Shown here: positions 1,402 to 19,052 of the stretch, piece after piece
Layout of the letters: each line of letters begins with the position of its first letter
Numbering within the stretch: the stretch's first letter is position 1
Assembly (NCBI GenBank): GCA_021513695.1
Contig: CP084166.1
Location: forward strand, 480,001-544,000
Direction of reading: 5' to 3'
DNA length: 64,000 nt
From: Candidatus Heimdallarchaeum aukensis
GTDB taxonomy: Archaea; Asgardarchaeota; Heimdallarchaeia; Heimdallarchaeales; Heimdallarchaeaceae
The notes under the pieces: model-generated
Told to the model about the DNA's origin: nothing
What the model saw: only the letters and a program-made list of their open reading frames with translations
The model's database searches: none
Position numbers and translations under genes: made by a program

Positions 1402-2976
1402 ATGGCTCGTATTACTCATATTGGACATGATAAAGGAATTTTGGAAGAAAAAAGACAAACAATACTTTCACTAAGAGAAAAGTCTCTAAAAGGTGGGGGA
1501 GAGGAAAAAATAGCCAGTCAACACAATAAAGGAAAGCTTACTGCGAGAGAGAGAATAGAATTATTGGTTGACGAAAATTCTTTTTGCGAAATAGATCAAA
1601 TAAGAAAATCTCAACATTCTGAATTAGAAATGGAAAAAATAGAAGGAGACGGTGTAGTAACAGGTTATGCAACTATTAATGGTAGACGAGTCTTTATTTA
1701 TAGTCAAGATTTTACCGTTTTGGGAGGAAGTTTAGGAAAAACTCACGCAAAAAAAATTTGTAAAGTTATGGATCTTGCTCTTCAGAGTGGGTGTCCTATA
1801 ATAGGGTTACTTGACTCTGGAGGAGCAAGAATTCAAGAAGGAATAGATTCTCTAGCTGGTTATGGTGAAATATTTTATAGAAATGTAATGAGTTCAGGGG
1901 TAATTCCCCAAGTTTCTATTATTTTGGGTCCTTGTGCTGGAGGAGCGGTCTATTCTCCTGCCCTAACTGATTTTATTATTATGAATCAAATTAATTCATT
2001 TATGTTTGTTACTGGCCCTCAAGTTGTTAAGACAGTTACCGGTGAAGATGTTTCATTCTATGATTTAGGAGGAAGTGAAGTACATAGTTCACTTAGCGGA
2101 GTAAGTCATTTAGTAGGAGAAGATGAAGAGGAAACGATAAATTTAGCTAAGAGACTCTTATCTTACCTTCCATCGAACAATTTAGATGACCCTCCACAAG
2201 AAATAGATGATATCGAAGAAAATGATCAAGATATTCTTTCTGATATTATTCCTGAGCAGGAAAATGAACCTTATGATATGAAAAAAGTAGTTGAAACAGT
2301 TTTAGACCAAGACAGTTTCTTTGAATTACAAGAAAATTGGGCAAAAAACATTATTGTTGGTTTCGGAAGATTAGAAGGTTTAACTGTCGGTATTATTGCA
2401 AACCAACCTTTATTTCTTGGAGGAGCTATAGAATATAATGCTGCGGATAAAGCAGCAAGATTTATTCGTTTTTGTGATTCATTTAACATCCCTATAATTA
2501 CTTTTGTTGATGTACCTGGTTTTATGCCAGGATTAAAACAAGAGGAAGAAGGAATAATTCGTCATGGAGCTAAAATGCTTTTTGCTTATTCAGAAGCTAC
2601 TGTCCCAAAACTTGCAGTAATAACAAGAAAAGCTTATGGAGGAGCTTATATTGTTATGAGCTCAAAGCATTTAGGAGCTGATATTAATTTTGCTTGGCCT
2701 ACAGCAGAAATAGCTGTCATGGGGGCAGAGGGAGCTTGTAATATTATTTATAGAAAAGAACTGAAAAAAGCTGAAAATCCAGAACAAGCTTTGCAAGATT
2801 TTGTTGTAAAATACAAAAAACAGTTCAGCAATCCTATTCGAGCAGCTGAGAAAGGATATGTTGACAAAGTTATTTTGCCTGAAGAAACAAGAATTGAACT
2901 TTCTAATGCCTTGAAATTTTTACAAAATAAAAGGATAGATACCCCGAAAAGAAAACACGGGAATATTCCACTTTAA
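1402..2976 (+). CDS. pccB: Acyl-CoA carboxylase carboxyltransferase subunit (PccB/AccD5 type)
   Basis: 524 aa. Motifs seen: LDSGGARIQEG, GPCAGGAVYSPAL, DVPGFMPG, HGAKMLFAY, AYGGAYIVM. It has the two-halved crotonase-like carboxyltransferase layout. Confidence 0.9.
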   Translation: MARITHIGHDKGILEEKRQTILSLREKSLKGGGEEKIASQHNKGKLTARERIELLVDENSFCEIDQIRKSQHSELEMEKIEGDGVVTGYATINGRRVFIYSQDFTVLGGSLGKTHAKKICKVMDLALQSGCPIIGLLDSGGARIQEGIDSLAGYGEIFYRNVMSSGVIPQVSIILGPCAGGAVYSPALTDFIIMNQINSFMFVTGPQVVKTVTGEDVSFYDLGGSEVHSSLSGVSHLVGEDEEETINLAKRLLSYLPSNNLDDPPQEIDDIEENDQDILSDIIPEQENEPYDMKKVVETVLDQDSFFELQENWAKNIIVGFGRLEGLTVGIIANQPLFLGGAIEYNAADKAARFIRFCDSFNIPIITFVDVPGFMPGLKQEEEGIIRHGAKMLFAYSEATVPKLAVITRKAYGGAYIVMSSKHLGADINFAWPTAEIAVMGAEGACNIIYRKELKKAENPEQALQDFVVKYKKQFSNPIRAAEKGYVDKVILPEETRIELSNALKFLQNKRIDTPKRKHGNIPL

Positions 2977-2997: not shown

Positions 2998-5900
2998 ATG
3001 AAAACTCTAAAAGAACTAAAAAATGAACTACAAATTAAATATCCAATTTTTGGATATAATCCTATCGGACTTGCTGATCCCACGTTAGCTATTGAAATCT
3101 CCAAACTTGGAGGAGTGGGATTAATTAACACTATTGGACTTGAACAAGAAGAACTAACTAAGATTCTTGATCAATGCGAACTTAATCTACCCACACAACT
3201 ATGGGGAATAAGGATTAACGATCTTTCTCACATTAAATGGATTAATCATGAACGAAGTATTCCAATCGTTATCCTACCGGAGAAACCTACAAGATTACAA
3301 CTGGATAAACTGCGTAAAATAAGTAAATTTATTGTCGCTGAAGTTTTATTTGTTGAAGAAGCAAAAAGTCATCTTGAATGGTCAGATTTCTTTTTAGTTA
3401 AAGGTATTGAAGCAGGAGGAAAAGTTGGTACAAAAGCTTCTTTTATTCAGATTCAAGAGTTTTATGAAACTGGATGGCCTTTTATCATTCAAGGAGGAAT
3501 GGGTGCTTTTAATATTAGTTCTGCTCTAATAGGAGGAGCAATAGGAGTAGTTTTTGAGGGACAATTATATCAATTTCCTGAATGTCCTCTTTCTGAAGAA
3601 GCGAAAAAGTATCTTGCTTCTTTAGGTGAAAATGATTCTTTCATTATCAATGAAAGTGGTAAAGAAGGTTACAGAATTTCTGGAAAACTAGCTAACAAAG
3701 CAATTAGAGAAATAAAACAACTAGAAGAAGAATCAAGTGAGGAAAAAATACTTGATAGAATTACTGAATTTGAAAAACCTCACGATCAATTTGGTTTTAA
3801 GAGTCAGAACATTAAACACGCATTTTTACCACTAGGTAACGATGTTTTCTTCTCCACATTCTTCAAGAAAAGATTTGGAAATTTAACAAATTTTGTGGAG
3901 CAAGCTCTTAAGATAGCTGATGAACAAATACAGATTGCTCTAAGAAATTGGCCTTTTGCAAAAGGTTCTACTTTATCCAACTTTCTAGGTACAAAATATC
4001 CTATTATTCAAGGCCCTATGGCTAATGTTTCTGATAATGTAGACTTTGCTATTAATGTAGCGAAAAATGGAGCTCTTCCTTTCTTAGCTTTGGGTGGATT
4101 ACTAAAAGAAGAAACTGAGGAGCTTTTTGATAAAGTTAGAGAAAGTGAACTTGTAAAATATTCCTATGGTTGTGGGATTATAGGTTTAGAAGCAGTTAAA
4201 CAAAGGAGAGAAGAGCACCTTTCTTTAATGAGAGATCTTAAACCTCCCTTTGCTTTGATTGCTGCTGGAACAGTTAATTTAGCTAAACAAGTACAAGAAA
4301 TGGGTTTTAAGACTTTATTACACACTCCCGCTCTATCAATGTTTAAAGATTCTATCAAAAATGGAATAGATTTACAAATTTTAGAAGGGAGTGAATGTGG
4401 AGGACATATTGGACTTCTTTCATCTTTTATTTTATGGGAAAGTATTTTGGAATTTTTAGATGAAAATAGAGAACAGATAGAAAAACCTTTGAAAATAGCT
4501 TTTGCAGGAGGGATATCTGACGGCACTAGTTCTGCGATGCTAGCAGTTATGATTGCTAAACATCTAGATATTATAGAATCAGCAATACAGATGGGTACAT
4601 CCTACTTATTTACTGAAGAGATTCTAGAAACAAAGGCTTTAACTGGATTTTATCAAGAACTTCTTCTTAATTCTAACTACACCAGAATTATAGGCTCAAC
4701 AGTAAATACTCGAGCACGAGCTGCTCCTTCACCTTTTGTAGATCAAACAATTAAAAGAGAAAGAGAGAGAATTAGACAAAAAATACCAATAAAAGAAAGA
4801 AAAGAACTTTACGAGAAAGATAATCTAGGAGCTTTAAGAATTGCAGCTAAAGCTGAAAAATGGAATAACGATCATGTTCCTGGTACTGCAACTACACAGT
4901 TTATAAAAATCGATGAAGAGGAACAGAAAAACTTTGGTTGCTTTATGGCTGGAGAAGTAATAGCAAAGAAACGTAGTATTTACAAGATAGATGACCTACA
5001 CTATGATATTTCAGTAATTGGAAAAGAAATCTTAGAAAAGCAATCAACTTCTATTGCTGATTATTTACTTTCAAAAGAAAAACTAGAAGCTTATGTTTCT
5101 AAAGAACAAAGTCCTCTAGTTATAGATAGTACTAATAAAATTGCTATAGTAGGAATAGGTAGTTTCTTCCCTGATGCTCCAAACACAGAAAAATTCTGGG
5201 AAAATATTGTTAACAAACATTATGCTGTAACTGAAGTACCTATTGAAAGATGGGATCCTAAATATTATTATGACGAAGATCGAACCGCTCCAGACAAGAC
5301 TTATACCAAAATTGGAGCGTTTGTAAAAGAATTTAAATTTAAACCTATTCAATTCAAGATTCCTCCTAAAGTAGCTGAAAAGATGGATGAAGTTCAGAAA
5401 TGGTCATTAATTGCTGCAAAAGAAGCTTTAGAAGATGCTGGAATACCCACAGATGGCAAGAAACGCCTACCTATAGGAGTAATTGTAGGCAATGCTTTAG
5501 GTGGAGAAAATCAGAGAATTACTAACAGGAGATTACACTATCCAGAAATTGAAGAACAACTAAAAATTTTATTAAGCTCAAAATTGTCTGATGAGGAAGT
5601 AGAAAAGTTTGTTTCTTCTTTCAAGAAAGAATATCTCAGTAAATACGCAGAGATTACAGAGGATACTATGCCTGGAGAATTATCTAATGTTGTTGCGGGA
5701 AGAATAGCCAATATATTCAATTTATCTGGTAAATCAATGACAACAGATGCTGCATGTGCTTCTTCTCTTGCTGCTCTGGACATTGCGGTAAAAAGTTTGT
5801 TGAATAACGATTTTGATACTATTCTTGTTGGCGGAGCAGATAGATCTATGGATGTTTCTTCTTATGTTAAATTCAGTAAGATCGGTGCTCTTTCTGCAAC

Positions 5901-7518
5901 TGGTTCTCGACCTTTTGATTCCAAGGCAGACGGTTTTGTAATGGGAGAAGGATGTGGTTTTCTTGTCTTGAAGAAATTGAAAAAAGCTATTGAAGACAAT
6001 GACAAAATTTATGCCATAATTGATTCTGTTGGTTCTTCCTCTGATGGTAAAGGAAAAGGAATTACTGCTCCTAATCCTTTAGGACAAAAAGAAGCTATTG
6101 AAAGAGCTCTTGAACAAGCTAAAGTTTCTCCTTCTGAGATAGATTTAATTGAAGCACATGGAACTTCCACCATAGTAGGAGATAAAACAGAAGTTCAAGT
6201 TTTAAATGAGATTTTCACAGAAAAACAAAAAGAAAGAAAAAGGAAAATAGCTCTTGGTTCAATTAAAAGCCAAATTGGTCATTTAAAGAGCGCAGCAGGT
6301 ATAGCTTCTGTTATAAAAGTAGCTTTAGCTCTTGACAAGAAAATTCTTCCACCAACGATAAATGTTCAAGAACTTAATCCTGCGATTGATTGGAATAATT
6401 CTAATCTTTTTGTTAATCTTGATGCTCAACCATGGGAAAAGGTTGATAACTCTATCAGAAGAGCAGGAGTTTCTGCTTTTGGTTTTGGAGGAACAAATTA
6501 TCATACAATCTTGGAAGAATATATTCCAGAAGCACAGTACATAGAAAAAGAAAAGCAACCAATAGTTGAACTAAAAGAACAAAAAGAAGAAGTTTGCTTC
6601 CTTTATACTGGACAAGGAAGTCAATATTTAGGCATGATAAAGGAACTTTATGATAATTATCCAACTGTTAGAAAAACAATAGATGAAGCTTCAGTTATTG
6701 CTAAAGAGAGTTTAAATGCTGATTTGCGTGAAATAATTTTTGGTTCACCTCAACTTTCCAAAGTTGAAAATGAGGAAAGATTAAGACAAACAGAATACAC
6801 TCAACCTTCTCTCTTTGTAGTCGAAGTTGCTTTAACTAGATTATTGAAAGAAAAAGGAATTGAGCCTACAAGAGTAGCTGGACATAGTTTAGGAGAATAT
6901 ACTGCTTTAGTTGCTGCGGGAGTGTTCTCTTTTGAAGATGGATTAAAAGCTGTAATAGAAAGAGGAAAAGCGATGGCAAAAGCTTCTAAAAGTATCCCTG
7001 GAGCAATGGCAGCTATTCTTACATCTCAAGAAAAAGTTAAGGAAATTATAGAAAAGGTAAATGAAGGTTATATAACAGTAGCCAATTATAACTCATTAAA
7101 CCAAACAGTGATTTCGGGAGAAGAAAAAGCTGTAAACAAAGCTATAGAACTTTTCTCTGCAAGAAAAATAAAAGCAATAAAATTAAATGTTTCAACAGCT
7201 TTTCATTCTATTATTGTTAAAGATGCAGAAATAGAAATGGAGAGAGTGCTTAACAGCCTGACTTACAATAAACCTTCAATTCCTGTCTATTCAAATGTAA
7301 CGGGAAGTTTGTACCCTGACAAACCCTCTAAAATTAAAGAACTTCTAATTAATCAGCTCTGTAATTCTGTTCAATGGGTTAAGATTTCAGAAATGGTCAT
7401 TAATTGCTGCAAAAGAAGCTTTAGAAGATGCTGGAATACCCACAGATGGCAAGAAACGCCTACCTATAGGAGTAATTGTAGGCAATGCTTTAGGTGGAGA
7501 AAATCAGAGAATTACTAA
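2998..7518 (+). CDS. Type I PUFA-synthase/PKS-like megasynthase, part 1 (ER-like, ER, KS, AT); 3' end is an out-of-frame read into a tandem duplication
   Basis: ATG 2998 lies 5 nt after a GAGGAGA SD. aa 14-245 form an NMO/FabK-like barrel with KGIEAGGKVG, where a Lys codon (3421-3423) sits where His is usual. aa 332-665 form a PfaD/FabK-type enoyl reductase (YPIIQGPMANVS, LEGSECGGHIG, His codon 4405-4407). aa 714-1170 form a ketosynthase (IAIVGIGSFFPDAP, TTDAACASS with Cys codon 5755-5757, EAHGTST, SQIGHLKSAAG). This is followed by a malonyl/acyl transferase (FLYTGQGSQY, GHSLGEY with Ser codon 6886-6888, AFHS). The last ~44 codons (from 7386) are frame-shifted KS sequence. Confidence 0.85.
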   Translation: MKTLKELKNELQIKYPIFGYNPIGLADPTLAIEISKLGGVGLINTIGLEQEELTKILDQCELNLPTQLWGIRINDLSHIKWINHERSIPIVILPEKPTRLQLDKLRKISKFIVAEVLFVEEAKSHLEWSDFFLVKGIEAGGKVGTKASFIQIQEFYETGWPFIIQGGMGAFNISSALIGGAIGVVFEGQLYQFPECPLSEEAKKYLASLGENDSFIINESGKEGYRISGKLANKAIREIKQLEEESSEEKILDRITEFEKPHDQFGFKSQNIKHAFLPLGNDVFFSTFFKKRFGNLTNFVEQALKIADEQIQIALRNWPFAKGSTLSNFLGTKYPIIQGPMANVSDNVDFAINVAKNGALPFLALGGLLKEETEELFDKVRESELVKYSYGCGIIGLEAVKQRREEHLSLMRDLKPPFALIAAGTVNLAKQVQEMGFKTLLHTPALSMFKDSIKNGIDLQILEGSECGGHIGLLSSFILWESILEFLDENREQIEKPLKIAFAGGISDGTSSAMLAVMIAKHLDIIESAIQMGTSYLFTEEILETKALTGFYQELLLNSNYTRIIGSTVNTRARAAPSPFVDQTIKRERERIRQKIPIKERKELYEKDNLGALRIAAKAEKWNNDHVPGTATTQFIKIDEEEQKNFGCFMAGEVIAKKRSIYKIDDLHYDISVIGKEILEKQSTSIADYLLSKEKLEAYVSKEQSPLVIDSTNKIAIVGIGSFFPDAPNTEKFWENIVNKHYAVTEVPIERWDPKYYYDEDRTAPDKTYTKIGAFVKEFKFKPIQFKIPPKVAEKMDEVQKWSLIAAKEALEDAGIPTDGKKRLPIGVIVGNALGGENQRITNRRLHYPEIEEQLKILLSSKLSDEEVEKFVSSFKKEYLSKYAEITEDTMPGELSNVVAGRIANIFNLSGKSMTTDAACASSLAALDIAVKSLLNNDFDTILVGGADRSMDVSSYVKFSKIGALSATGSRPFDSKADGFVMGEGCGFLVLKKLKKAIEDNDKIYAIIDSVGSSSDGKGKGITAPNPLGQKEAIERALEQAKVSPSEIDLIEAHGTSTIVGDKTEVQVLNEIFTEKQKERKRKIALGSIKSQIGHLKSAAGIASVIKVALALDKKILPPTINVQELNPAIDWNNSNLFVNLDAQPWEKVDNSIRRAGVSAFGFGGTNYHTILEEYIPEAQYIEKEKQPIVELKEQKEEVCFLYTGQGSQYLGMIKELYDNYPTVRKTIDEASVIAKESLNADLREIIFGSPQLSKVENEERLRQTEYTQPSLFVVEVALTRLLKEKGIEPTRVAGHSLGEYTALVAAGVFSFEDGLKAVIERGKAMAKASKSIPGAMAAILTSQEKVKEIIEKVNEGYITVANYNSLNQTVISGEEKAVNKAIELFSARKIKAIKLNVSTAFHSIIVKDAEIEMERVLNSLTYNKPSIPVYSNVTGSLYPDKPSKIKELLINQLCNSVQWVKISEMVINCCKRSFRRCWNTHRWQETPTYRSNCRQCFRWRKSENY

Positions 7519-9378
7519 CAGGAGATTACACTATCCAGAAATTGAAGAACAACTAAAAATTTTATTAAGCTCAAAATTGTCTGATGAGGAAGTAGAAAAG
7601 TTTGTTTCTTCTTTCAAGAAAGAATATCTCAGTAAATACGCAGAGATTACAGAGGATACTATGCCTGGAGAATTATCTAATGTTGTTGCGGGAAGAATAG
7701 CCAATATATTCAATTTATCTGGTAAATCAATGACAACAGATGCTGCATGTGCTTCTTCTCTTGCTGCTCTGGACATTGCGGTAAAAAGTTTGTTGAATAA
7801 CGATTTTGATACTATTCTTGTTGGCGGAGCAGATAGATCTATGGATGTTTCTTCTTATGTTAAATTCAGTAAGATCGGTGCTCTTTCTGCAACTGGTTCT
7901 CGACCTTTTGATTCCAAGGCAGACGGTTTTGTAATGGGAGAAGGATGTGGTTTTCTTGTCTTGAAGAAATTGAAAAAAGCTATTGAAGACAATGACAAAA
8001 TTTATGCCATAATTGATTCTGTTGGTTCTTCCTCTGATGGTAAAGGAAAAGGAATTACTGCTCCTAATCCTTTAGGACAAAAAGAAGCTATTGAAAGAGC
8101 TCTTGAACAAGCTAAAGTTTCTCCTTCTGAGATAGATTTAATTGAAGCACATGGAACTTCCACCATAGTAGGAGATAAAACAGAAGTTCAAGTTTTAAAT
8201 GAGATTTTCACAGAAAAACAAAAAGAAAGAAAAAGGAAAATAGCTCTTGGTTCAATTAAAAGCCAAATTGGTCATTTAAAGAGCGCAGCAGGTATAGCTT
8301 CTGTTATAAAAGTAGCTTTAGCTCTTGACAAGAAAATTCTTCCACCAACGATAAATGTTCAAGAACTTAATCCTGCGATTGATTGGAATAATTCTAATCT
8401 TTTTGTTAATCTTGATGCTCAACCATGGGAAAAGGTTGATAACTCTATCAGAAGAGCAGGAGTTTCTGCTTTTGGTTTTGGAGGAACAAATTATCATACA
8501 ATCTTGGAAGAATATATTCCAGAAGCACAGTACATAGAAAAAGAAAAGCAACCAATAGTTGAACTAAAAGAACAAAAAGAAGAAGTTTGCTTCCTTTATA
8601 CTGGACAAGGAAGTCAATATTTAGGCATGATAAAGGAACTTTATGATAATTATCCAACTGTTAGAAAAACAATAGATGAAGCTTCAGTTATTGCTAAAGA
8701 GAGTTTAAATGCTGATTTGCGTGAAATAATTTTTGGTTCACCTCAACTTTCCAAAGTTGAAAATGAGGAAAGATTAAGACAAACAGAATACACTCAACCT
8801 TCTCTCTTTGTAGTCGAAGTTGCTTTAACTAGATTATTGAAAGAAAAAGGAATTGAGCCTACAAGAGTAGCTGGACATAGTTTAGGAGAATATACTGCTT
8901 TAGTTGCTGCGGGAGTGTTCTCTTTTGAAGATGGATTAAAAGCTGTAATAGAAAGAGGAAAAGCGATGGCAAAAGCTTCTAAAAGTATCCCTGGAGCAAT
9001 GGCAGCTATTCTTACATCTCAAGAAAAAGTTAAGGAAATTATAGAAAAGGTAAATGAAGGTTATATAACAGTAGCCAATTATAACTCATTAAACCAAACA
9101 GTGATTTCGGGAGAAGAAAAAGCTGTAAACAAAGCTATAGAACTTTTCTCTGCAAGAAAAATAAAAGCAATAAAATTAAATGTTTCAACAGCTTTTCATT
9201 CTATTATTGTTAAAGATGCAGAAATAGAAATGGAGAGAGTGCTTAACAGCCTGACTTACAATAAACCTTCAATTCCTGTCTATTCAAATGTAACGGGAAG
9301 TTTGTACCCTGACAAACCCTCTAAAATTAAAGAACTTCTAATTAATCAGCTCTGTAATTCTGTTCAATGGGTTAAGAT
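5393..9378. repeat. Head-to-tail tandem duplication, 2 x 1,993 bp (copy 1 5393-7385, copy 2 7386-9378), inside the synthase KS-AT region
   Basis: All shadow ORFs recur at an offset of exactly 1,993 with identical translations (5538-5783 vs 7531-7776; 6325-6558 vs 8318-8551; 6362-6544 vs 8355-8537; 6455-6664 vs 8448-8657). About 600 aa of the main frame are identical between copies. The junction reads gttaagat|ttcagaaatgg. 1,993 is not a multiple of 3. Confidence 0.95.
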
Positions 9379-12300
9379 AATTGAAGAGATGTATAACGAT
9401 GGAGGAAGAATTTTTGTAGAAGTAGGACCTAAAAAAGCATTGTACAACTTTGTTAAAGATATTTTAGGTGAAAAAGAAGACATTCAAACTTTTCTTACAT
9501 TAAACCCGAAAGTAGGAGAGTTAAAATCTTTTAATGATACTGTCTCTAAATTAAAAATGAGCAAAAGAAGAGAAACCGAAACCCCAGTTCAAACTAAAGA
9601 AAAAATAGTTTACAAAGAATCAGCACTAGATGTTTTACTTAAAAATAAAGAGATTAACAACTTGGTCTCTAAACCCTATTTCCGTGAGTATTTGAAAGAG
9701 AACAGCAATCTTCTTTCATCTATAATGAAACAAGGTTACGAGCAGTTCTCAAAGTACAGAGAATCATTGGTTATTGCTGAAAAAGCTAAATATTGGGATA
9801 TAAACTTTGATCTTATTGGTGTTACTGGTGTTGGAATTGGTCTCCCAGGAAAGAATAGAGCTGTTTTCTCTGATGATAATTTTGATCTTATTCTCAATGG
9901 AACAAATCTTATCGAATCTGTTGAAGATACAATAAAACAAGAAACTTTAGACAAAAACATCGTTAGGTTAGTTAAATCTCCTGATGGTAATGCAACTTTT
10001 GAAGCAATTGACGATATAAGTAAAGTTATTCAACTTGCAGCACAGATAGGAGAATTAAACTTCAAAGAATTAGGTATAGAAGATAAATTGGCTAAAGCTT
10101 TAGACTCCACTTTTATTATGGCTATAGGTGCAGGACTAGAAGCGTTGAAAGATGCTGGTATTCCTCTTGTTGAAAGCAAAATAGTTACTTCAACTGGAAA
10201 AACTTTGAAAGGGAGCTGGACTTTACCAGAATCCTTACAACATGATACTGGAATAGTTTTTGCTTCTGCTTTTCCCGGATATGATAATTTAGTAGATGAA
10301 GTAACAAGACATCTTGTAGCTAAATTTGAAAACAAAACTAATAAAGAGATTGAGGAGATATTTGAGCAATTAATTAATGTTGTATCAAACCCTGAAGCAA
10401 AAGAAGAGATCTCTAACTGGTTCTTGGAGAAACAATCTCTACTGGAAGAAAAAGAAGAAAAGTATACTTTTAGTAGAGAGTTCCTTTACAAAGTTTTGTC
10501 TATGGGGCACTCTCAATTTGCCCAATTTATTAAAGCTAAAGGTCCGAATACTCAAGTCAATGCTGCTTGTGCTTCTACAACCCAAGCAATTGGTGTAGCA
10601 GAAGATTGGATAAGAACTGGAAGATGTAAGAGAGTAATAGTAATAGCTGGAGACAATGCTGCAAGCAAGAATCTGTTACCTTGGATAGGTGGGGGATTCT
10701 TAGCAGCTGGGGGAGTAACCACAAAAGCCGATGTTAAAGAAGCTGCTTTACCTTTTGGAAAAGAAAGACATGGATTAATTATAGGTTCAGCTTCTGCAGG
10801 TCTTGTAATTGAAAGCAGAGAATCCTATGAAGAAAGAGGAGTTAAACCAATAGTAGACCTTGTGGGTACTTATATGGCAAATAGTGCTTATCATGGTTCT
10901 AGATTAGATGTCAACCATATTTCTGAAGAACTTGAAAGCTTTATTGAAAAAGTAGAAAGAAGATATAATATCGACAGGAAAAATATCGCTAAAGAAGGTA
11001 TTTTTGTCTCTCATGAAACTTATACACCTGCAAGAGGAGGAAGTGCAGAAGCAGAAATTCAATCACTTCTTAATGTTTTCAAAGAAGATGCTTATTCTAT
11101 GACCATAATAAACACAAAAGGATTTACAGGTCATTCAATGGGTGCAGGAATAGAAGAAGCTGTAGCTATTAAAGCAATAGAAAAAGGTAAGATTCCTCCA
11201 ATTGCTAACATAGAGAAACTTGACCCTGCCTTTTCTAAATTTAAGTTCTCAAAAGGAGAAAAGAGAAGATTTTCCTTCGCTTTGAGATTAGCAGCTGGAT
11301 TTGGGTCACAATTAGCTTTTGCTCTCTTCAGGTTAAATACTTACGACAACAGATTCTCTGCCCAATACAATGAATGGCTCAAGAGTCTTGGTGGTGGCAA
11401 AGAAGAGTTATTTGTTGAAGGCAGAGTACTTAAACTCAAAACAGATAATAAGAAAAAACAAGCTGATTTAGTTAAGAAACCAGCAGTACAAAAAACTGTT
11501 GAAAAGAAAATTAAAACTGTTACAAAAGCACCTACAGATATTCTTCAAGTTGTAAAAGATATTATTTCTGAAAAAACAGGTTATGAAACAGAAGTCATTG
11601 AAGAAAATATGCATTTAGAAGAAGATCTTGGGATTGACAGTATTAAAGCAGCAGAAATAATGAACGATATTAGCGATAAATGGTCAATACCTCAAGAAAA
11701 ACTCTTCGAACAATTTGATATCGATACACCAGGAAAAATTGCAAAGTTCATTTCTGAAAACACAAGCGCTCCTGAAGAGACAAGTTATTCAGTTGAAACA
11801 ACTGTAGCAAAAGAGGAAGTAAAAAGAGCAGAAACTTCTAGTGTTTCAACAGGAGATATTTTAGTGCGAATTAAAGAAGTAATTGGAAAACACACAGGTT
11901 ATGACATTCAAGATCTAGATGAAAACTATGACCTAGAAGAAGATCTGGGAATAGATACAGTAAAACAAGCAGAAATTTTTGGAGATTTAAGAGATTTATT
12001 CGGATTGGATTTAGATGAGACTTATGCTTTAGCAGATTATCGAACAATAGCTGACATTGCCCAAGCAATATCTACAGAGAAACCAGTGGAAAAGGTTAAA
12101 CAAGTGGAAACTGAAGAAAGCGGAGAGATTAGAACAGCACAACAACCAACAATCATATCTGAAGCTGAAAGTTCAATTTCCAGAGAAGAAGTTACAAAAG
12201 AAGTGCTTTCAATTATCTCAGAAATTACAGGATACGATACAGAAGATATAGAAATAGAGATGGATCTAGAGGAAGATTTGGGTGTTGATAGTATCAAGAT

Positions 12301-15300
12301 TGCTGAAATTCTAAGCTCTTTGGGAAGTAAGTTCGACCTTGAATTTGATGAGATGTCTGATCTTTCAGGAATTAGAAATACAGAAGATATAGTGGAAGCA
12401 GTGATAAAAATTAAGCAATCCATTGAACAAACTCAAACCCCAACCAAAACAGAAGAACAATTAGCTGTAAGTCAAAAACTTAAAGTTGAACAAGAAGAAG
12501 AAATAGTTATTCGTAGTGTAGAACCTGTTCTAAAGCCTTTAGAACAAAGTGAAGTAAATAAATTTAATCTAGAAGATAAAAATCTCTTACTTCTAGATAT
12601 TCATTCAAAAGAAGCCAAATATATCTATTCTTTACTTGAACAGAAGAAGGCTAAAATTGAGCTTGTTAGGATTAATTCTGAAGACTCAGAAAAACCAAAT
12701 AATAATAAATATGACTTAATCTTAATCTTATTACCAGATGATCACAATTCTGCAAATGATACTAAATACTTTGAGCAACTATTTCTTACCCTACAACAGC
12801 TAGAGTACAATCATAATACTAAGATTGTTTCTTACTCTGTTGAAGACTATTTAGACTCTAAAAAGGAGATAATTCCTTTAAGTGGAGGTATATCCGCTTT
12901 TGTTAAGACTATTGGTCAAGAATTTGAACTAGACATTAAACATGTTTATTCCACAAAACCTGAAGAACTAGTTACAGAGTTGGAAAATTGGGATAAAAAC
13001 CTTGAAGTTATTTATTCAGAGGGTAAAAGATACATTTTCAGTCACATGAGAAAAATACCTCTAGAACAATTACAAAAAGAAAAAATCGAACTTACAGAAG
13101 ATGATCTTATACTTGTTACTGGAGGAGCAAGAGGTATCACTTATGAATGTATTAAAGAACTTACAAAAGATGCTAAACCTTCAATTGCTATCGTTGGTAG
13201 AACTAAACTTCCAGAAGATGTATCTGAATTGCTCTTCTTAACCGACAAAGAAATAGCAAACAAAAAAGAAGAGATAAAAGAAAAACTTGCTCAAGAAAAT
13301 GAAAAAGTTACTCCAGTGATGATAGAAAAAGCTTGGAAACGCTTCCTAAACACTGTTGAAATTGCAAAGAATATTCTCTATTTAATTGAAAATGAAGTGA
13401 ATGCTAACTATTATTCTGCAGATGTTTCAGATGAAGAACAAATGAAAAGTGTTTTGAGTCAAATTGAAGAAGATTTCGAAAAAACTATAACTCTTATTGT
13501 ACATGGTGCGGGAATAGAAGAATCTAAAGCTTTCAAGAAAAAGAAACTAGAAATGGCAAAGAAAATAGTACAAGTAAAGATTTCAGGGTTATACAATATT
13601 CTAAATAATATAGATCAATCTAATTTGAAGAAGATCATCTGCTTTAGCTCAATTGCAGGAAGATTTGGTAATAGAGGACAAGTGGATTATGCTTTTGCAA
13701 ATGGTTATCTAGCTAGAACATGCTGGAAGTTTAAACAACAAGGAATTAACGCTCTAGCTATAGATTGGTCAGCTTGGGCAGATATAGGCATGGCAACACA
13801 AGGTTCTATTCTTAAAGTGCTGAAAGCTGCAGGAATAACTCCCATTCCATTAAAAGAAGGAATAAGAATATTTTCTGAACTAACCAATTACAATGTAGAA
13901 CAAAGTGAATTAATAGTTGCAGGAAAACTTGGACTTCTTCTAAAAGAAATAGAAGATAAAAAAACAAGTGGTCAACACGATACTAGTATGAACACAGAGA
14001 GTTATCCAATGATTGATGAAATTAGAAAAACAGACAACGGTTTTATTGCTTCAAAGACACTAAAATATGATTATGACTTATACATGAGAGATCATCAAAT
14101 CCAAGGATTGCCAATATTTCCTGCAGTAATGGGATTAGAATTCTTCGCTGAGATGTTCAAACTTACAACAGAAAAAGATGTTTACGCAATAGCAGAAGTA
14201 TCGTTTAGAGAAGCAATTAAACAGTTTAAGAACAAAAATGTTGAACTTCAATGTTCATTTGATACAGAAAGAGGGGATATGGAAATTAAAACAATCTTTA
14301 CAGACATTAAAGGAGTTCAAAAAGAAAAGAAACACTTCTTCTGTAAGTCTGTAAAAGATACGACAGAAAAAAGCTATAAGAAAAAGAAGATAGAAAAAAG
14401 AGTGATACCACTACTTTCCAAAGAAGTGATCTATCAGCTTTTCTTCCATGGTCCAAGTTTTCAAGTTTTGGAGAATTTGAATGAGATAAAAGGAAATATC
14501 ATCTCCACTAATGTCCAGATTCCAAATCTGCCTTTATTCAAAGATGAAGAATTGAAAACTATTCTCGTTCCTCGAGCAATAGAAGCGGCTTTACAGACAG
14601 CAGGGTTGTATGACATGTTCATTAACAATGTTGTTTCATTGCCATCAAAAATAAAAAACTTGGAAGTATACAAGGAAACAGAAGCTGTTTTTGCTGAAGC
14701 TGAATTCCTAAAGATAGAGGAAAGACATAGTTTCTTCAATGTAAAGATTTACGATGCTGAAGGAGAAGTAATAATGGTTTTAGAACAACTAGGAATGATA
14801 CATACTTCTATGCCCATAAATTTGGACGAAAAAGGAAAGAAACTCTTCCAGATGATTAAAGGATATCATGAAATAAGAACAAAAGTAGATGACGAAAAAG
14901 TAGCTGTTTTACCTATTCACAAAGTAGTAGAAGAATACAGAAAAAATAGACAAGAACTAGAAAATAAACTAGTTGCTTACGAAAAAACAAGATTTACTAA
15001 AATATCCAACGAAAAAAGAAAAATGGAATATTTAGCGGGAGTAATCCTTGCTAAAGAACTTTTTTCCAAATATGAAAACATTACCGATTTCAGAAGTATA
15101 GAAATAAAAAAGAAGAGTAAGGGGCAACCTTACTTTTTCAACAGACAACTAAAAGAAGAAACGGATTGGTATGTTTCTATTAGTCATTCAAATGATTTCG
15201 CTGTAGTCTCTATTGAGAAACAACCAGTAGGAATAGACATAGAAAAAGTAGAAGAAAGAAGTAAAAGTTTCTATGGCGAAGTTTTTTCAGATTATGAATT

Positions 15301-15538
15301 ATCAAAAATTGCTGATGACCATACTTTAGGAACAAAATATTGGACTGCTAAAGAGTCATTAACTAAAGCATTAGGAGAAGGATTACATATTAAACTAAAA
15401 GAAATTGAGTTTGGTTACAACGATGGCAAATTTGATCTAAAAAAATATCCTTCTTCTCTAAAACAAGATCAATTGCAGACTTCTATTGAATCTATTGAAG
15501 CAGCAGGTTATGTTGTTTCTAAATGTGTAATAAAATAA
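7577..15538 (+). CDS. Type I PUFA-synthase/PKS-like megasynthase, part 2 (KS remnant, AT, second KS, 3 ACP, KR, DH, PPTase); the called start is not a real start
   Basis: The frame is the KS frame of duplication copy 2, and TTG 7577 is internal to the KS. KS Cys codon is 7748-7750 and AT Ser codon is 8879-8881. The second KS-like domain spans aa 745-1255 (GVTGVGIGLPG; NAACAST with Cys codon 10568-10570; SHETYTP; TGHSMGAG). ACP1 has LGIDS (Ser codon 11639-11641), ACP2 has LGIDT (Thr codon 11957-11959) and ACP3 has LGVDS (Ser codon 12290-12292). KR shows LVTGGARGIT from 13106 and GNRGQVDYAFAN. The PKS-type DH has HQIQGLPIFP (His codon 14093-14095). The C-terminal 4'-phosphopantetheinyl transferase has GIDIEKV from 15230 and WTAKESLTKALG. 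Confidence 0.85.
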   Translation: MSDEEVEKFVSSFKKEYLSKYAEITEDTMPGELSNVVAGRIANIFNLSGKSMTTDAACASSLAALDIAVKSLLNNDFDTILVGGADRSMDVSSYVKFSKIGALSATGSRPFDSKADGFVMGEGCGFLVLKKLKKAIEDNDKIYAIIDSVGSSSDGKGKGITAPNPLGQKEAIERALEQAKVSPSEIDLIEAHGTSTIVGDKTEVQVLNEIFTEKQKERKRKIALGSIKSQIGHLKSAAGIASVIKVALALDKKILPPTINVQELNPAIDWNNSNLFVNLDAQPWEKVDNSIRRAGVSAFGFGGTNYHTILEEYIPEAQYIEKEKQPIVELKEQKEEVCFLYTGQGSQYLGMIKELYDNYPTVRKTIDEASVIAKESLNADLREIIFGSPQLSKVENEERLRQTEYTQPSLFVVEVALTRLLKEKGIEPTRVAGHSLGEYTALVAAGVFSFEDGLKAVIERGKAMAKASKSIPGAMAAILTSQEKVKEIIEKVNEGYITVANYNSLNQTVISGEEKAVNKAIELFSARKIKAIKLNVSTAFHSIIVKDAEIEMERVLNSLTYNKPSIPVYSNVTGSLYPDKPSKIKELLINQLCNSVQWVKIIEEMYNDGGRIFVEVGPKKALYNFVKDILGEKEDIQTFLTLNPKVGELKSFNDTVSKLKMSKRRETETPVQTKEKIVYKESALDVLLKNKEINNLVSKPYFREYLKENSNLLSSIMKQGYEQFSKYRESLVIAEKAKYWDINFDLIGVTGVGIGLPGKNRAVFSDDNFDLILNGTNLIESVEDTIKQETLDKNIVRLVKSPDGNATFEAIDDISKVIQLAAQIGELNFKELGIEDKLAKALDSTFIMAIGAGLEALKDAGIPLVESKIVTSTGKTLKGSWTLPESLQHDTGIVFASAFPGYDNLVDEVTRHLVAKFENKTNKEIEEIFEQLINVVSNPEAKEEISNWFLEKQSLLEEKEEKYTFSREFLYKVLSMGHSQFAQFIKAKGPNTQVNAACASTTQAIGVAEDWIRTGRCKRVIVIAGDNAASKNLLPWIGGGFLAAGGVTTKADVKEAALPFGKERHGLIIGSASAGLVIESRESYEERGVKPIVDLVGTYMANSAYHGSRLDVNHISEELESFIEKVERRYNIDRKNIAKEGIFVSHETYTPARGGSAEAEIQSLLNVFKEDAYSMTIINTKGFTGHSMGAGIEEAVAIKAIEKGKIPPIANIEKLDPAFSKFKFSKGEKRRFSFALRLAAGFGSQLAFALFRLNTYDNRFSAQYNEWLKSLGGGKEELFVEGRVLKLKTDNKKKQADLVKKPAVQKTVEKKIKTVTKAPTDILQVVKDIISEKTGYETEVIEENMHLEEDLGIDSIKAAEIMNDISDKWSIPQEKLFEQFDIDTPGKIAKFISENTSAPEETSYSVETTVAKEEVKRAETSSVSTGDILVRIKEVIGKHTGYDIQDLDENYDLEEDLGIDTVKQAEIFGDLRDLFGLDLDETYALADYRTIADIAQAISTEKPVEKVKQVETEESGEIRTAQQPTIISEAESSISREEVTKEVLSIISEITGYDTEDIEIEMDLEEDLGVDSIKIAEILSSLGSKFDLEFDEMSDLSGIRNTEDIVEAVIKIKQSIEQTQTPTKTEEQLAVSQKLKVEQEEEIVIRSVEPVLKPLEQSEVNKFNLEDKNLLLLDIHSKEAKYIYSLLEQKKAKIELVRINSEDSEKPNNNKYDLILILLPDDHNSANDTKYFEQLFLTLQQLEYNHNTKIVSYSVEDYLDSKKEIIPLSGGISAFVKTIGQEFELDIKHVYSTKPEELVTELENWDKNLEVIYSEGKRYIFSHMRKIPLEQLQKEKIELTEDDLILVTGGARGITYECIKELTKDAKPSIAIVGRTKLPEDVSELLFLTDKEIANKKEEIKEKLAQENEKVTPVMIEKAWKRFLNTVEIAKNILYLIENEVNANYYSADVSDEEQMKSVLSQIEEDFEKTITLIVHGAGIEESKAFKKKKLEMAKKIVQVKISGLYNILNNIDQSNLKKIICFSSIAGRFGNRGQVDYAFANGYLARTCWKFKQQGINALAIDWSAWADIGMATQGSILKVLKAAGITPIPLKEGIRIFSELTNYNVEQSELIVAGKLGLLLKEIEDKKTSGQHDTSMNTESYPMIDEIRKTDNGFIASKTLKYDYDLYMRDHQIQGLPIFPAVMGLEFFAEMFKLTTEKDVYAIAEVSFREAIKQFKNKNVELQCSFDTERGDMEIKTIFTDIKGVQKEKKHFFCKSVKDTTEKSYKKKKIEKRVIPLLSKEVIYQLFFHGPSFQVLENLNEIKGNIISTNVQIPNLPLFKDEELKTILVPRAIEAALQTAGLYDMFINNVVSLPSKIKNLEVYKETEAVFAEAEFLKIEERHSFFNVKIYDAEGEVIMVLEQLGMIHTSMPINLDEKGKKLFQMIKGYHEIRTKVDDEKVAVLPIHKVVEEYRKNRQELENKLVAYEKTRFTKISNEKRKMEYLAGVILAKELFSKYENITDFRSIEIKKKSKGQPYFFNRQLKEETDWYVSISHSNDFAVVSIEKQPVGIDIEKVEERSKSFYGEVFSDYELSKIADDHTLGTKYWTAKESLTKALGEGLHIKLKEIEFGYNDGKFDLKKYPSSLKQDQLQTSIESIEAAGYVVSKCVIK

Positions 15539-15572
15539 TATGGAGATTAAAAAAAAAAAAAGGTGATAATAT

Positions 15573-16334
15573 ATGTTACAACTGAATTATGATATAAAAT
15601 TTAGAAAGGATTTCATTCATGGAATTCTTTATTTGCCGGATGAAGAGGGGCAGTTCCCTTTAGTTATAAGATTGAACGGTTTTCCGGGCAATTCTCCAGA
15701 AAAAGAAGAACAAAGATTAGCAGATATTATCACCCAGAATAATATGGCTTTTTATGCCTTTGACTATGTAGGAGTAAGAAAAAGTACAGGGACATTTAAT
15801 TATTATACGAGTTTGGAAAACATAAATACTGTTATAACAGATTTATCACATCATCCTCGAATTAATCCTGCAAAGATTGCTCTTCTTGGAGAAAGCTTCG
15901 GAGGAGCAATGGCAATAAGCCAAGGAGTAAGAGACCAAAGAATAAAATGTATTGTTTTAAGGTCTCCTGTATATGATACTGAAGTTATTCCTCAAATACC
16001 GTCTTTTAATACTTTAGTTAAAATATGGTCCAGAAACAATCAAATACGTTTCCCTAAAGGAGACATAAGTGAATTATACTACAAACAAACTAATCTTTAC
16101 AATCCTAAAAAAATAGCAAATTTAGTTAATTGCCCCGTAAAATTGATTGCAGGAGATAAAGATGAGTTGTTGGAAGTTAAGGGTTTTAGAGAACTTTACA
16201 AATGTTTACCACGGAAACTAAGAAAAGGAATTGATATCATTAAAGGAGCAGATCATAACTTTACTAAACAAAAACAGTTTATAGAATTAAAGAGTGAACT
16301 TTCCAGCTTTTTGACTTGTTGCCTTTTAGGGTAA
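15573..16334 (+). CDS. Alpha/beta-fold hydrolase (dienelactone hydrolase / BAAT-type thioesterase-like)
   Basis: GESFGG forms a GxSxG nucleophile elbow. Downstream AGDKDELL supplies the Asp and GADHNF the His. An AGGTGAT SD lies 6 nt before the ATG. Length is 253 aa. Confidence 0.75.
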   Translation: MLQLNYDIKFRKDFIHGILYLPDEEGQFPLVIRLNGFPGNSPEKEEQRLADIITQNNMAFYAFDYVGVRKSTGTFNYYTSLENINTVITDLSHHPRINPAKIALLGESFGGAMAISQGVRDQRIKCIVLRSPVYDTEVIPQIPSFNTLVKIWSRNNQIRFPKGDISELYYKQTNLYNPKKIANLVNCPVKLIAGDKDELLEVKGFRELYKCLPRKLRKGIDIIKGADHNFTKQKQFIELKSELSSFLTCCLLG

Positions 16335-16355
16335 ATAACTTATGGAGTGCAAAAG

Positions 16356-16838
16356 ATGAAGAAAAAAATAATCTACAACAATGAAGAATACATAATAGAA
16401 GCTAAAGGAGAAGACGAGATAGTAGTGAATAATAAGACTTTCAAAGTTAACTTAAAAGAGAAAAACAAGAATTTTTTCAATATAGAAATTCAAGGAAAGA
16501 AGTTTATTATAGAAGTAAGAGAAGGAGAATTCTATTTAGACGGAGAGAAAATAGAAAAATTATCAATTAGCCCCTATTTTCCACAATTAAAGAAACAAAA
16601 ACAAATGATTAACTCTCAAAAAGAAGTAGTAAAAGCACCTATACCAGGAACTATAACTCAAATACTAGTTAAAGAAGGAGATACAGTAAAAAAAGACCAA
16701 GAATTATTTATCCTTGAAGCGATGAAAATGAGAAATAGAATCTTAACAACCATTGACAAAGGTGTAGTAAAAAAAATCTACGTTAGCGAGAATGAAACTG
16801 TATCTCAAGATCAAAAACTAGCTATAATTGAAAATTAA
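16356..16838 (+). CDS. accB: Biotin carboxyl carrier protein (archaeal AccB-type, biotinyl domain)
   Basis: The C-terminal biotinyl domain carries the EAMKM motif (ILEAMKMRNRI). A GGAGTG SD lies 6 nt before ATG 16356, whereas the ORF caller started at GTG 16347. Its size of about 160 aa resembles archaeal AccB. Confidence 0.8.
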   Translation: MKKKIIYNNEEYIIEAKGEDEIVVNNKTFKVNLKEKNKNFFNIEIQGKKFIIEVREGEFYLDGEKIEKLSISPYFPQLKKQKQMINSQKEVVKAPIPGTITQILVKEGDTVKKDQELFILEAMKMRNRILTTIDKGVVKKIYVSENETVSQDQKLAIIEN

Positions 16839-17073
16839 ATAAAAAAATAACAAAACAAATTTATTGCAAAAATAATTTAAAATTCGCACAAATATTTGGA
16901 TACTTCTTCTTTTTTAAATTCAAATTTTATCAAAAACTTGAAAAGAATGCTAAATAGTCTATTTTTTAAATAAATAGGAAACAAAAAAAGTTTAGACTAA
17001 GTGGTTAGTTTTTGAAGTATAAATGAGGAGAAATAGGAACTGTATAATTTAAAGAAGAATAAAAAAAATAGGA

Positions 17074-17661: not shown

Positions 17662-17679
17662 TTTATCAAAAGCTTCTTT

Positions 17680-18234: not shown

Positions 18235-18269
18235 TATGGAGATTAAAAATAAAAAAAAGGTGATAATAT

Positions 18270-19031: not shown

Positions 19032-19052
19032 ATAACTTATGGAGTGCAAAAG

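What the first reader, a model, noticed from the sequence alone, without database searches (positions are those of the whole stretch)
5393..9378. Apparently exact 1,993-bp tandem duplication splits the synthase by a frameshift
Seen: 5393-7385 is repeated at 7386-9378. Every overlapping ORF translation is identical, and I found no mismatch by eye. The unit runs from the KS N-terminal region (MDEVQKW) to the end of the AT domain (VQWVKI). 1,993 mod 3 = 1, so ORF1 reads about 44 out-of-frame codons and stops at 7518. Inference: this is either an assembly or collapse artefact, a very recent duplication that inactivates the gene, or population heterogeneity. If real, it is a snapshot of KS-AT module duplication.
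Basis: seen in the sequence. Interest (0 to 1): 0.6.

Follow-up and report, generated by a model that had tools for sequence, protein, structure and literature searches.

The report
Likely false duplication splitting archaeal synthase
A perfect 1,993-base back-to-back repeat that breaks a giant lipid/polyketide synthase gene in the published genome of the Asgard archaeon Ca. Heimdallarchaeum aukensis is really in the record, but an independent short-read assembly of what appears to be the same DNA sample and all relatives show one copy and an intact gene, so it is most likely an assembly error rather than biology.

Summary
Window 5393-7385 and 7386-9378 are identical (1,993 bp, 0 mismatches). 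The junction is blunt. ORF1 runs 43 out-of-frame codons and stops at 7518.

The window is the deposited Ca. Heimdallarchaeum aukensis genome. The two fragments are GenBank UJG41226.1 and UJG42174.1. Removing one copy restores a single 3,515-aa ER-KS-AT-KS-ACP3-KR-DH-PPTase synthase. It is colinear with the intact orthologues (3,515 aa in H. endolithica, 3,519 aa in another MAG) and is under strong purifying selection (dN/dS 0.09).

An independent Illumina-only k=31 assembly (Logan, SRR15988954) is 100% identical to the window. It runs unbroken through both unit borders. It does break exactly at the borders of a second, 2,696-bp tandem duplication 7.6 kb downstream, which serves as an internal positive control.

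The genome was built from metaSPAdes contigs, joined twice with LRScaf using Nanopore reads from MDA-amplified DNA, then polished with Pilon. That route is prone to false duplications.

Verdict: most likely an assembly artefact (about 0.7), possibly a minority variant (about 0.25), and not a fixed gene split. The unit cuts inside both the KS and AT domains, so it is not a clean module duplication. Interest is low, apart from correcting a reference genome.

The parts
5393..7385 (+). Copy 1 of the 1,993-bp unit. It covers residues 799-1463 of the synthase: most of KS, including the active-site DAACAS at residue 917, and most of AT, including GHSLG at residue 1295.
   Evidence: Exact identity to 7386-9378. 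Domain and motif positions.
7386..9378 (+). Copy 2 of the 1,993-bp unit. This is probably the spurious extra copy, although which of the two copies is 'extra' cannot be decided.
   Evidence: The independent Logan contig L001 and the relatives L005 and L016 have only one copy.
7380..7391 (+). The novel junction ...GTTAAGAT|TTCAGAAATGG... It is a blunt join with 0 bp of microhomology and no similarity between the two breakpoint contexts.
   Evidence: The 27-mer across the junction is absent from JGI metagenome contigs, while the native adjacency is found once.
2998..7518 (+). ORF1 as deposited (GenBank UJG41226.1, 1,506 aa): FabK/NMO-like ER, KS, a C-terminally truncated AT, and a 43-codon out-of-frame tail (7386-7518).
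7403..15538 (+). ORF2 as deposited (GenBank UJG42174.1, 2,711 aa, ATT start): N-terminally truncated KS, AT, a second KS-like domain, 3 ACPs, KR, DH and PPTase.
2998..15538 (+). The real gene once one unit is removed (2998-7385 joined to 9379-15538). It is a single 3,515-aa ORF with these domains: ER (about 3973-4851), KS (5134-6366), AT (6598-7385 plus 9379-9490), second KS-like domain (about 9788-11440), 3 ACPs (about 11528-12400), KR (13109-13783), DH (from 14033) and PPTase (14975-15427).
   Evidence: single ORF. (end-to-end colinear with the 3,515-aa PR6 protein and the 3,519-aa MAG orthologue). (domains). (dN/dS 0.09).
14995..17692 (+). Copy 1 of the second tandem duplication (unit of about 2,696 bp): the 3' end of the synthase gene (PPTase domain), the alpha/beta hydrolase gene, the BCCP gene, and the 3' part of csm6 (minus strand). 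It serves as an internal control for how a junction supported by reads looks in the Illumina graph.
   Evidence: Logan contig L003 (2,699 bp) equals exactly this unit.
17691..20388 (+). Copy 2 of the second tandem duplication. It overlaps copy 1 by the 2-bp microhomology TA.
   Evidence: Logan contig L004 starts at window 20359, which is 20389-30.
1402..2976 (+). Acyl-CoA carboxylase beta (carboxyltransferase) gene immediately upstream of the synthase (UJG41225.1). It was used as the anchor to retrieve the independent contig.

Best explanation
[quoted passage not shown] It is not a feature of most cells.

The chromosome was assembled from metaSPAdes Illumina contigs. These were joined in two rounds of LRScaf using Nanopore reads from MDA-amplified (and in one run PCR-amplified) DNA, then polished with Pilon.

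My inference is that one of two things happened at a join or gap-fill inside the synthase gene:
- two sequence pieces overlapping by about 2 kb were concatenated instead of merged, or
- a chimeric long read supplied the fill.

Pilon would then have polished both copies to the same Illumina consensus, which would explain why they are identical.

The consequence in the record is that one 3,515-aa PfaA-like ER-KS-AT-KS-ACP3-KR-DH-PPTase gene appears as two ORFs with a frameshift. In the organism the gene is most likely intact.

Shown: the repeat is exact and is in GenBank. One copy restores an intact, conserved gene. The Illumina graph has no branch at the unit borders.

Inferred: which pipeline step made it.
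For: 1. Independent assembly.
- Logan contig SRR15988954_7381 (L001) is 100% identical to window 1-7385 and 7386-14969 with exactly one unit.
- Logan contigs are k=31 de Bruijn contigs without repeat resolution, and every 31-mer occurs only once in them. A junction with normal read support must therefore break the contig at both unit borders. It does not.

2. Internal positive control.
- In the same run, the contigs do break at the borders of the second duplication.
- L001's contig end extrapolates to window 15024, which is 14994+30.
- L003 (2,699 bp) spans exactly 14995-17692.
- L004 starts at 20359, which is 20389-30.
- Neighbouring contigs therefore overlap by k-1 = 30 nt.

3. Same DNA. Only one DNA sample (FW4588) yielded this organism. 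It gave the single Illumina PE library and both MDA-preamplified MinION runs. The assembly method is listed as 'Metaspades + Lrscaf' plus Pilon.

4. Long-read sequence is present nearby. Each copy of the second duplication carries its own A-run deletion relative to the Illumina contig. So long-read-derived, imperfectly polished sequence is present 7.6 kb from the finding. Unit 1 has no homopolymer of 7 or more, so a polished fill would look clean.

5. Relatives are single-copy. This holds for PR6 (L005), JGI contig L016, and the proteins P0016 (3,515 aa) and P0011 (3,519 aa, 98.35% identity, no gaps).

6. The gene is constrained. dN/dS is 0.089 against PR6.

7. The junction. It is blunt with no microhomology, as expected for a computational join. 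It lies inside the KS and AT domains and is out of frame.

8. Known class. False duplications from incorrect gap filling are documented (PMC9516828).
Against: - No reads could be inspected. Depth and junction-spanning reads are untested.
- The identification of SRR15988954 as the Illumina run of sample FW4588 is inferred. It rests on 100% identity over about 29 kb and on there being only one such library.
- Graph cleaning in Logan (Minia3) removes low-coverage connections. A junction present in a minority of cells would be invisible. My rough estimate, from my own knowledge of the Minia/SPAdes relative-coverage heuristics, is below about a quarter of cells.
- If the metaSPAdes contig was as continuous here as the Logan contig, it is unclear why a scaffolder would have touched the interior of the gene. 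The exact step is unknown.
- LRScaf says it 'merges' contigs with a negative gap, which should not leave a duplicate if done exactly.
- There is no run of N and no residual error marking a join.
- A neighbouring tandem duplication seems to be read-supported, so real duplications do occur in this population.
Confidence: 0.7

Rival explanations
1. This is a real but rare structural variant. A very recent intragenic tandem duplication would exist in a minority of cells of the enrichment culture. Stochastic MDA over-amplification of a few template molecules would then have made it dominate the Nanopore reads at this locus, and the scaffolder or gap-filler would have written it into the consensus.
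For: - The Illumina graph can hide a junction of low relative coverage, because Minia3 follows SPAdes-like simplification.
- A second tandem duplication 7.6 kb away is supported by the graph topology of the same run, so this population does carry such rearrangements.
- The Nanopore libraries were MDA-amplified from scarce DNA.
- The copies have zero divergence, which fits a very young event.
Against: - There is no positive evidence for the junction outside the record. It is absent from the Logan contig structure and from JGI metagenome contigs.
- The junction is blunt. Replication-slippage or microhomology-mediated duplications usually show a few shared bases (the expectation is general knowledge).
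- The variant would inactivate a gene with dN/dS 0.09.
Confidence: 0.25
2. This is a real duplication present in most or all cells. The synthase would be genuinely split and inactivated, or expressed as two polypeptides, in Ca. H. aukensis.
For: It is what the deposited, Pilon-polished 'complete' genome shows. GenBank annotates both fragments as proteins.
Against: - The Illumina-only k=31 contig from the 100%-identical population passes both unit borders unbroken, while contigs break at the borders of the other duplication.
- All relatives have one copy and an intact gene of 3,515-3,519 aa.
- There is strong purifying selection.
- ORF1 would lack any ACP, and ORF2 would start with a KS that lacks about 90 N-terminal residues and uses an ATT start.
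Confidence: 0.04
3. The extra copy comes specifically from an MDA chimera, formed by phi29 template switching in a Nanopore read that was then used for gap filling. On this reading it does not come from a computational unmerged overlap.
For: - Both Nanopore runs were MDA-preamplified.
- MDA makes chimeras, and intramolecular ones within 10 kb are favoured (PMC1855051).
- Long-read-derived sequence is present nearby.
Against: - 85% of MDA chimeras are inverted.
- Direct-orientation joins less than 10 kb apart were only 11 of 475.
- Over 70% of junctions show complementary bases.
- Here the join is direct, 2 kb apart, and has no microhomology.
- This is a sub-case of the artefact explanation, not a rival to it.
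Confidence: 0.2

Closest known systems
False (assembly-generated) duplications, as characterised by Ko et al. 2022, Genome Biol 23:205 (PMC9516828)
   Same: - Adjacent duplicated copies that create a false gene structure in the annotation.
- They arise from incorrect gap filling or unmerged sequence during scaffolding.
- They are absent from an independent assembly of the same material.
   Different: - That study concerns vertebrate diploid assemblies, where many cases are haplotype (heterotype) duplicates. This is a haploid archaeal MAG.
- There is no N gap between the copies here.
- The diagnostic read-depth and discordant-pair criteria could not be tested here.
Genuine prokaryotic tandem duplications by illegitimate or microhomology-mediated recombination (general knowledge, e.g. 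the Reams and Roth reviews)
   Same: Head-to-tail direct repeat of a few kb, zero divergence, and a single novel junction. The second duplication in this window (14995-20388), with a TA/ATYTA microhomology and read-graph support, looks like this class.
   Different: The 1,993-bp duplication has no microhomology, has no support in the Illumina graph, and is absent from all relatives.
PfaA-type polyunsaturated fatty acid / secondary-lipid megasynthases (NCBIfam TIGR02813)
   Same: The affected gene has KS-AT, tandem ACPs (3), KR and a PKS-type DH. TIGR02813 is its best NCBIfam hit at 969 bits.
   Different: - The score is below the 1,010-bit cutoff.
- The protein also carries an N-terminal FabK/NMO-like enoyl reductase, a second KS-like domain between AT and the ACPs, and a C-terminal PPTase, all in one polypeptide.
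- No pfaB, pfaC or pfaD partner genes are seen in the window.
- The host is an Asgard archaeon.
MDA chimeras (Lasken and Stockwell 2007, PMC1855051)
   Same: The long reads used for scaffolding came from MDA-amplified DNA. MDA rearrangements are mostly intramolecular and within 10 kb.
   Different: The typical MDA chimera is inverted, with a deletion and 2-21 nt of junction complementarity. This join is direct, duplicative and blunt.

Membership tests
False assembly duplication (criteria of PMC9516828) | Absent from an independent assembly or independent read data of the same material | tested here: met
   Logan Illumina-only contig L001 is 100% identical to the window, has one copy, and is unbroken at both unit borders. 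Contigs do break at the borders of the neighbouring duplication. That the sample is the same one is inferred.
False assembly duplication (criteria of PMC9516828) | About half the normal read depth on each copy, and no reads across the junction (a depth gap) | not testable with these tools
The Logan per-contig abundance is not exposed.
False assembly duplication (criteria of PMC9516828) | An assembly gap (run of N) or a join mark between the copies | tested here: not met
   There is no N anywhere in the window, and the junction is seamless. A gap could have been closed by gap filling and Pilon, so this is weak evidence.
Genuine tandem duplication in the population | The novel junction is supported by unamplified sequencing reads | tested here: not met
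   There is no graph branch at 5393 or at 7385/9378 in the k=31 Illumina assembly. A low-frequency junction cannot be excluded.
Genuine tandem duplication in the population | Short microhomology at the breakpoints (usual, but not obligatory) | tested here: not met
   Shared bases at the junction: 0 bp. The longest run of identity between the two breakpoint contexts, at any offset within +/-15, is 5 nt.
Modular duplication of a KS-AT unit (PKS module evolution) | Breakpoints fall in inter-domain linkers and the reading frame is preserved | tested here: not met
   The unit starts 86 residues inside KS and ends 27-37 residues before the end of AT. Its length is 1,993 = 3n+1.
PfaA-type PUFA synthase (TIGR02813) | Whole-protein score at or above the curated cutoff | tested here: not met
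   969.1 bits against a cutoff of 1,010.1, measured on the 95%-identical PR6 orthologue P0016.
PfaA-type PUFA synthase (TIGR02813) | KS-AT followed by tandem ACP domains, KR and DH | tested here: met
   Pfam and NCBIfam domain hits plus three DLG[IV]D[ST] ACP motifs at residues 2212, 2318 and 2429. There is also an extra KS-like domain, an ER and a PPTase.
PfaA-type PUFA synthase (TIGR02813) | Accompanying pfaB/pfaC/pfaD genes in the cluster | tested here: not met
   The neighbours are a biotin ligase, acyl-CoA carboxylase beta, an alpha/beta hydrolase, BCCP and then CRISPR-Cas genes. An ER (PfaD-like function) is fused at the N-terminus instead.

The most novel reading that the evidence does not exclude
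The duplication is a real, days-to-months-old intragenic tandem duplication segregating at low frequency in the Ca. H. aukensis enrichment. Together with the read-supported 2.7-kb duplication 7.6 kb downstream, it would indicate an unusually high rate of kb-scale tandem duplication in this Asgard archaeon. That would be raw material for the domain accretion seen in its many giant genes.
Probability: 0.2. Interest if true: 0.4.

Novelty: not a real feature. Interest (0 to 1): 0.15.

Why it matters
Ca. H. aukensis is one of very few circularised Heimdallarchaeia genomes and is used as a reference for questions about eukaryogenesis.

If the duplication is false:
- Two GenBank/UniProt entries (UJG41226.1 / A0A9Y1BLU5 and UJG42174.1 / A0A9Y1BNB5) are fragments of one intact 3,515-aa megasynthase.
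- Any inference that this archaeon has lost, or split, its only PfaA-like fatty-acid/polyketide synthase would be wrong. That point bears on the archaeal-eukaryotic 'lipid divide'.
- It also warns that other exact kb-scale tandem repeats in this assembly need checking against the reads.

Biologically the finding itself is ordinary.

Tried and rejected
- **Synthetic insertion into the window.** Rejected, because ORF1 with its out-of-frame tail is exactly GenBank UJG41226.1.
- **PCR/Sanger primers from the paper.** I searched for the five primers that verified the end-join and the 1-kb unresolved region. None lies in the window, so this locus was not one of the experimentally checked joins.
- **Junction 27-mer in JGI metagenome contigs.** 0 hits. 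The native-adjacency control found one contig, L016, which is single-copy. This is a weak test, because only one related contig exists in that collection.
- **Exact-protein look-up of ORF1 and of full-length Csm6 in the contig index.** Neither is on record.
- **Shorter unmerged k-mer overlaps elsewhere in the window.** I looked for 55/77/99-bp tandem repeats typical of SPAdes joins. Tandem Repeats Finder and self-BLAST found none.
- **A CRISPR array at 33.5-36 kb that might explain where the Logan contig ends.** None was found.
- **Repeated k-mers at the unit borders that could have caused a graph tangle.** There is no repeat of 14 nt or more elsewhere in the window.
- **Literature on a PfaA-like synthase in Asgard archaea.** Nothing specific turned up.
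- **A 'collapse artefact', meaning the true genome has more copies.** Rejected, because the Illumina graph shows no cycle at this unit.
- **Programmed frameshifting across the junction.** Rejected, because a single copy gives a perfect orthologue-length ORF.
Full report
**1. The observation**

Window 5393-7385 and 7386-9378 are identical over all 1,993 bases, with no mismatch (self-BLAST 100%). Identity stops exactly at the unit ends. The base before copy 1 differs from the last base of the unit, and the base after copy 2 differs from the first base of the unit. The junction ...GTTAAGAT|TTCAGAAATGG... therefore has no microhomology. The two breakpoint contexts share no more than a 5-nt run at any offset.

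1,993 = 3 x 664 + 1. ORF1 (2998-7518, 1,506 aa) leaves the frame at the junction, reads 43 sense codons (SEMVINCC...SENY) and stops at 7518.

**2. Where the window comes from**

Exact-sequence look-ups identify the window as the deposited genome of Candidatus Heimdallarchaeum aukensis, a 3,081,793-bp contig:
- ORF1 is UJG41226.1.
- The downstream fragment is UJG42174.1 (2,711 aa). It starts at an ATT codon at 7403.
- The upstream carboxyltransferase is UJG41225.1.

The duplication is therefore in GenBank and UniProt and was not introduced when the window was made. The sister genome, Ca. H. endolithica PR6 (CP084167.1), was retrieved as L005.

**3. What the gene is**

Deleting one unit gives a single ORF of 3,515 aa. 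This is the same length as the PR6 orthologue UJG44031.1. It aligns end to end with that protein at 95% identity, and with a 3,519-aa orthologue from another Heimdallarchaeaceae MAG at 98.35% identity without gaps.

The domains are as follows:
- an N-terminal FabK/NMO-like enoyl reductase;
- KS, with active-site motif DAACAS at residue 917;
- AT, with GHSLG at residue 1295;
- a second KS-like domain, with NAACAS at residue 1857;
- three ACPs;
- KR;
- a PKS-type DH;
- a C-terminal 4'-phosphopantetheinyl transferase.

The best NCBIfam hit is PfaA (TIGR02813) at 969 bits, just under the 1,010-bit cutoff. The gene sits between a biotin ligase and acyl-CoA carboxylase beta on one side and an alpha/beta hydrolase and BCCP on the other.

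Against PR6, dN/dS is 0.089 for the whole gene and 0.072 within the unit. The gene has therefore been under strong purifying selection in this lineage.

The unit covers residues 799-1463. It begins 86 residues inside the KS domain and ends 27-37 residues before the AT domain ends. It is not a domain-bounded module.

**4. Independent data from the same population**

The upstream carboxyltransferase is also encoded on a Logan contig from run SRR15988954 (L001, contig length 13,596 bp). L001 is 100% identical to window 1-7385 and to 7386-14969, with the two matches overlapping by exactly one unit. In other words, it is the window minus one copy.

Having one copy is not informative on its own. Logan contigs are k=31 de Bruijn contigs in which every 31-mer is unique by construction, and they are built by Minia3 without repeat resolution (PMC12424806).

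The graph topology is informative. A tandem junction with normal read support gives the unit node two predecessors and two successors. The contig then has to stop at both unit borders. L001 passes 5393 and 7385/9379 without stopping.

**5. An internal positive control**

The window holds a second near-exact tandem duplication, 14995-17692 / 17691-20388, with a period of 2,696 bp. At this one the Logan contigs behave as theory predicts:
- L001's contig ends at window 15024, extrapolated from its length. That is the last 31-mer still containing the unique base 14994.
- A separate 2,699-bp contig (L003) spans exactly 14995-17692, which also corresponds to 17691-20388.
- The next contig (L004, 100% identical to the window) starts at 20359, which is 20389-30.

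Neighbouring contigs overlap by k-1 = 30 nt. So in the same run, 7.6 kb away, a read-supported junction does break the graph, and the 1,993-bp junction does not. The latter is therefore absent from that read set, or rare enough to be removed as a low-coverage connection.

**6. How the genome was made**

Wu et al. 2022 (PMC8813620) give the following:
- Ca. H. aukensis came from one DNA sample (FW4588, incubation DRS71).
- Illumina PE150 reads were assembled with metaSPAdes.
- The assembly was scaffolded with two iterations of LRScaf using MinION reads.
- Both MinION runs were MDA-preamplified because DNA was scarce, and one was additionally PCR-amplified.
- The result was polished with Pilon at 346x.

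The only joins verified by PCR and Sanger sequencing were the circularisation point and a 1-kb unresolved stretch near 2.9 Mbp. None of those primers lies in this window.

Each copy of the second duplication carries its own deletion in an A-run relative to the Illumina contig: A5TA8 to A13 at 15554, and A8 to A7 at 19473. This is the signature of long-read-derived sequence that short-read polishing did not fully repair, so gap filling from Nanopore reads did occur in this neighbourhood. Unit 1 contains no homopolymer of 7 or more. A polished fill there would leave no trace.

LRScaf states only that contigs with a negative gap are 'merged' and that repeat contigs are masked (PMC6902338). False duplications from incorrect gap filling are a documented class (PMC9516828).

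**7. Relatives**

PR6 (L005), assembled independently with Canu, has one copy of the unit. So does JGI metagenome contig Ga0180301_10005383 (L016, about 95% identical). The junction 27-mer occurs nowhere in JGI metagenome contigs.

**8. Weighing the explanations**

A duplication present in most cells is contradicted by sections 4 and 5.

The remaining options are a technical artefact or a real minority variant that MDA happened to over-amplify.

Points favouring an artefact:
- the assembly route;
- the blunt junction;
- the breakpoints inside domains and the broken frame, in a gene with dN/dS 0.09;
- the lack of any support outside the record.

Within the artefact class, a classical MDA chimera is not the best fit. 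85% of MDA chimeras are inverted, direct joins under 10 kb apart were 11 of 475, and more than 70% of junctions have complementarity (PMC1855051). An unmerged overlap or a faulty fill at a join is at least as likely. I could not identify the step.

Points against a pure artefact:
- a scaffolder should not alter the interior of a contig, and the Logan contig is continuous here;
- the neighbouring duplication appears real.

My estimates are: artefact about 0.7, minority variant about 0.25, fixed about 0.04.

**9. Comparison with what is known, and verdict**

As a sequence feature this belongs to the known class of false assembly duplications. The one criterion I could test, absence from an independent assembly, is met. 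Read depth and discordant pairs could not be tested. The criterion of an N gap between the copies is not met.

It fails the tests for a genuine tandem duplication (no read-graph support, no microhomology). It also fails those for a modular KS-AT duplication (breakpoints inside domains, out of frame).

The gene underneath works like a PfaA-type iterative megasynthase but falls just below the family cutoff and has an unusual all-in-one architecture.

The finding is of low biological interest. Its value is curatorial: the reference genome and two UniProt entries probably misrepresent an intact gene. Simple k-mer counts in SRR15988954, plus one PCR, would settle it.

Noticed in passing
window 14995-17692 and 17691-20388: A second near-exact tandem duplication (unit about 2,696 bp, TA/ATYTA microhomology). 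It covers the PPTase end of the synthase gene, the alpha/beta hydrolase gene, the BCCP gene and the 3' part of csm6. It yields duplicate GenBank proteins (UJG41227/UJG41231) and two fragments (UJG41230, UJG41229). Illumina-only Logan contigs break exactly at both borders with 30-nt overlaps, so its junction is probably real, either as a tandem duplication or as an excised circle.
   Followed up: partly
window 15554 and 19473: Residual indel errors of the long-read type in the deposited sequence, relative to the Illumina contig L003. At 15554, A5TA8 became A13, in the spacer before the hydrolase gene. At 19473, A8 became A7, which frameshifts the last ~19 residues of BCCP copy 2: ...GVVKKSTLARMKLYLKIKN* instead of ...GVVKKIYVSENETVSQDQKLAIIEN*.
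   Followed up: yes
window 16839-35868: An island of about 19 kb (about 16.3 kb without the duplicated part) that is absent from Ca. H. endolithica PR6 (L005) and from ENA scaffold L002. In both, BCCP is followed directly by the sequence at window ~35860. The island carries csm6, a type III-B Cmr/Cas10 operon, a large NB-ARC/TPR STAND-like ATPase and a P_proprotein-domain protein. No CRISPR array was found at 33.5-36 kb.
   Followed up: partly
window 1-16838 (L001 adds PlsY upstream): An Asgard archaeon carries a bacterial-looking lipid cluster: PlsY-type glycerol-3-phosphate acyltransferase, biotin ligase, acyl-CoA carboxylase beta, the 3,515-aa all-in-one ER-KS-AT-KS-ACP3-KR-DH-PPTase synthase, a hydrolase and BCCP. 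The nearest homologues outside the Heimdallarchaeaceae are bacterial or from uncultured MAGs at only 25-41% identity (Bacteroidota, Xenorhabdus, Cloacimonadia and others). The product, the origin of the cluster and its bearing on the 'lipid divide' were not pursued.
   Followed up: partly
L016 (JGI Ga0180301_10005383; NCBI RLG16130-RLG16132): A 9.8-kb metagenome contig about 95% identical to this Heimdallarchaeum locus is labelled 'Candidatus Pacearchaeota archaeon' in NCBI. It is probably a binning or taxonomy error. Its synthase is also split into 497-aa and 2,001-aa products, which goes with a single indel relative to the window.
   Followed up: no
window 7403: GenBank's ORF2 (UJG42174.1) was given an ATT start codon inside copy 2. 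It overlaps the out-of-frame tail of ORF1. This is an annotation by-product of the duplication.
   Followed up: yes
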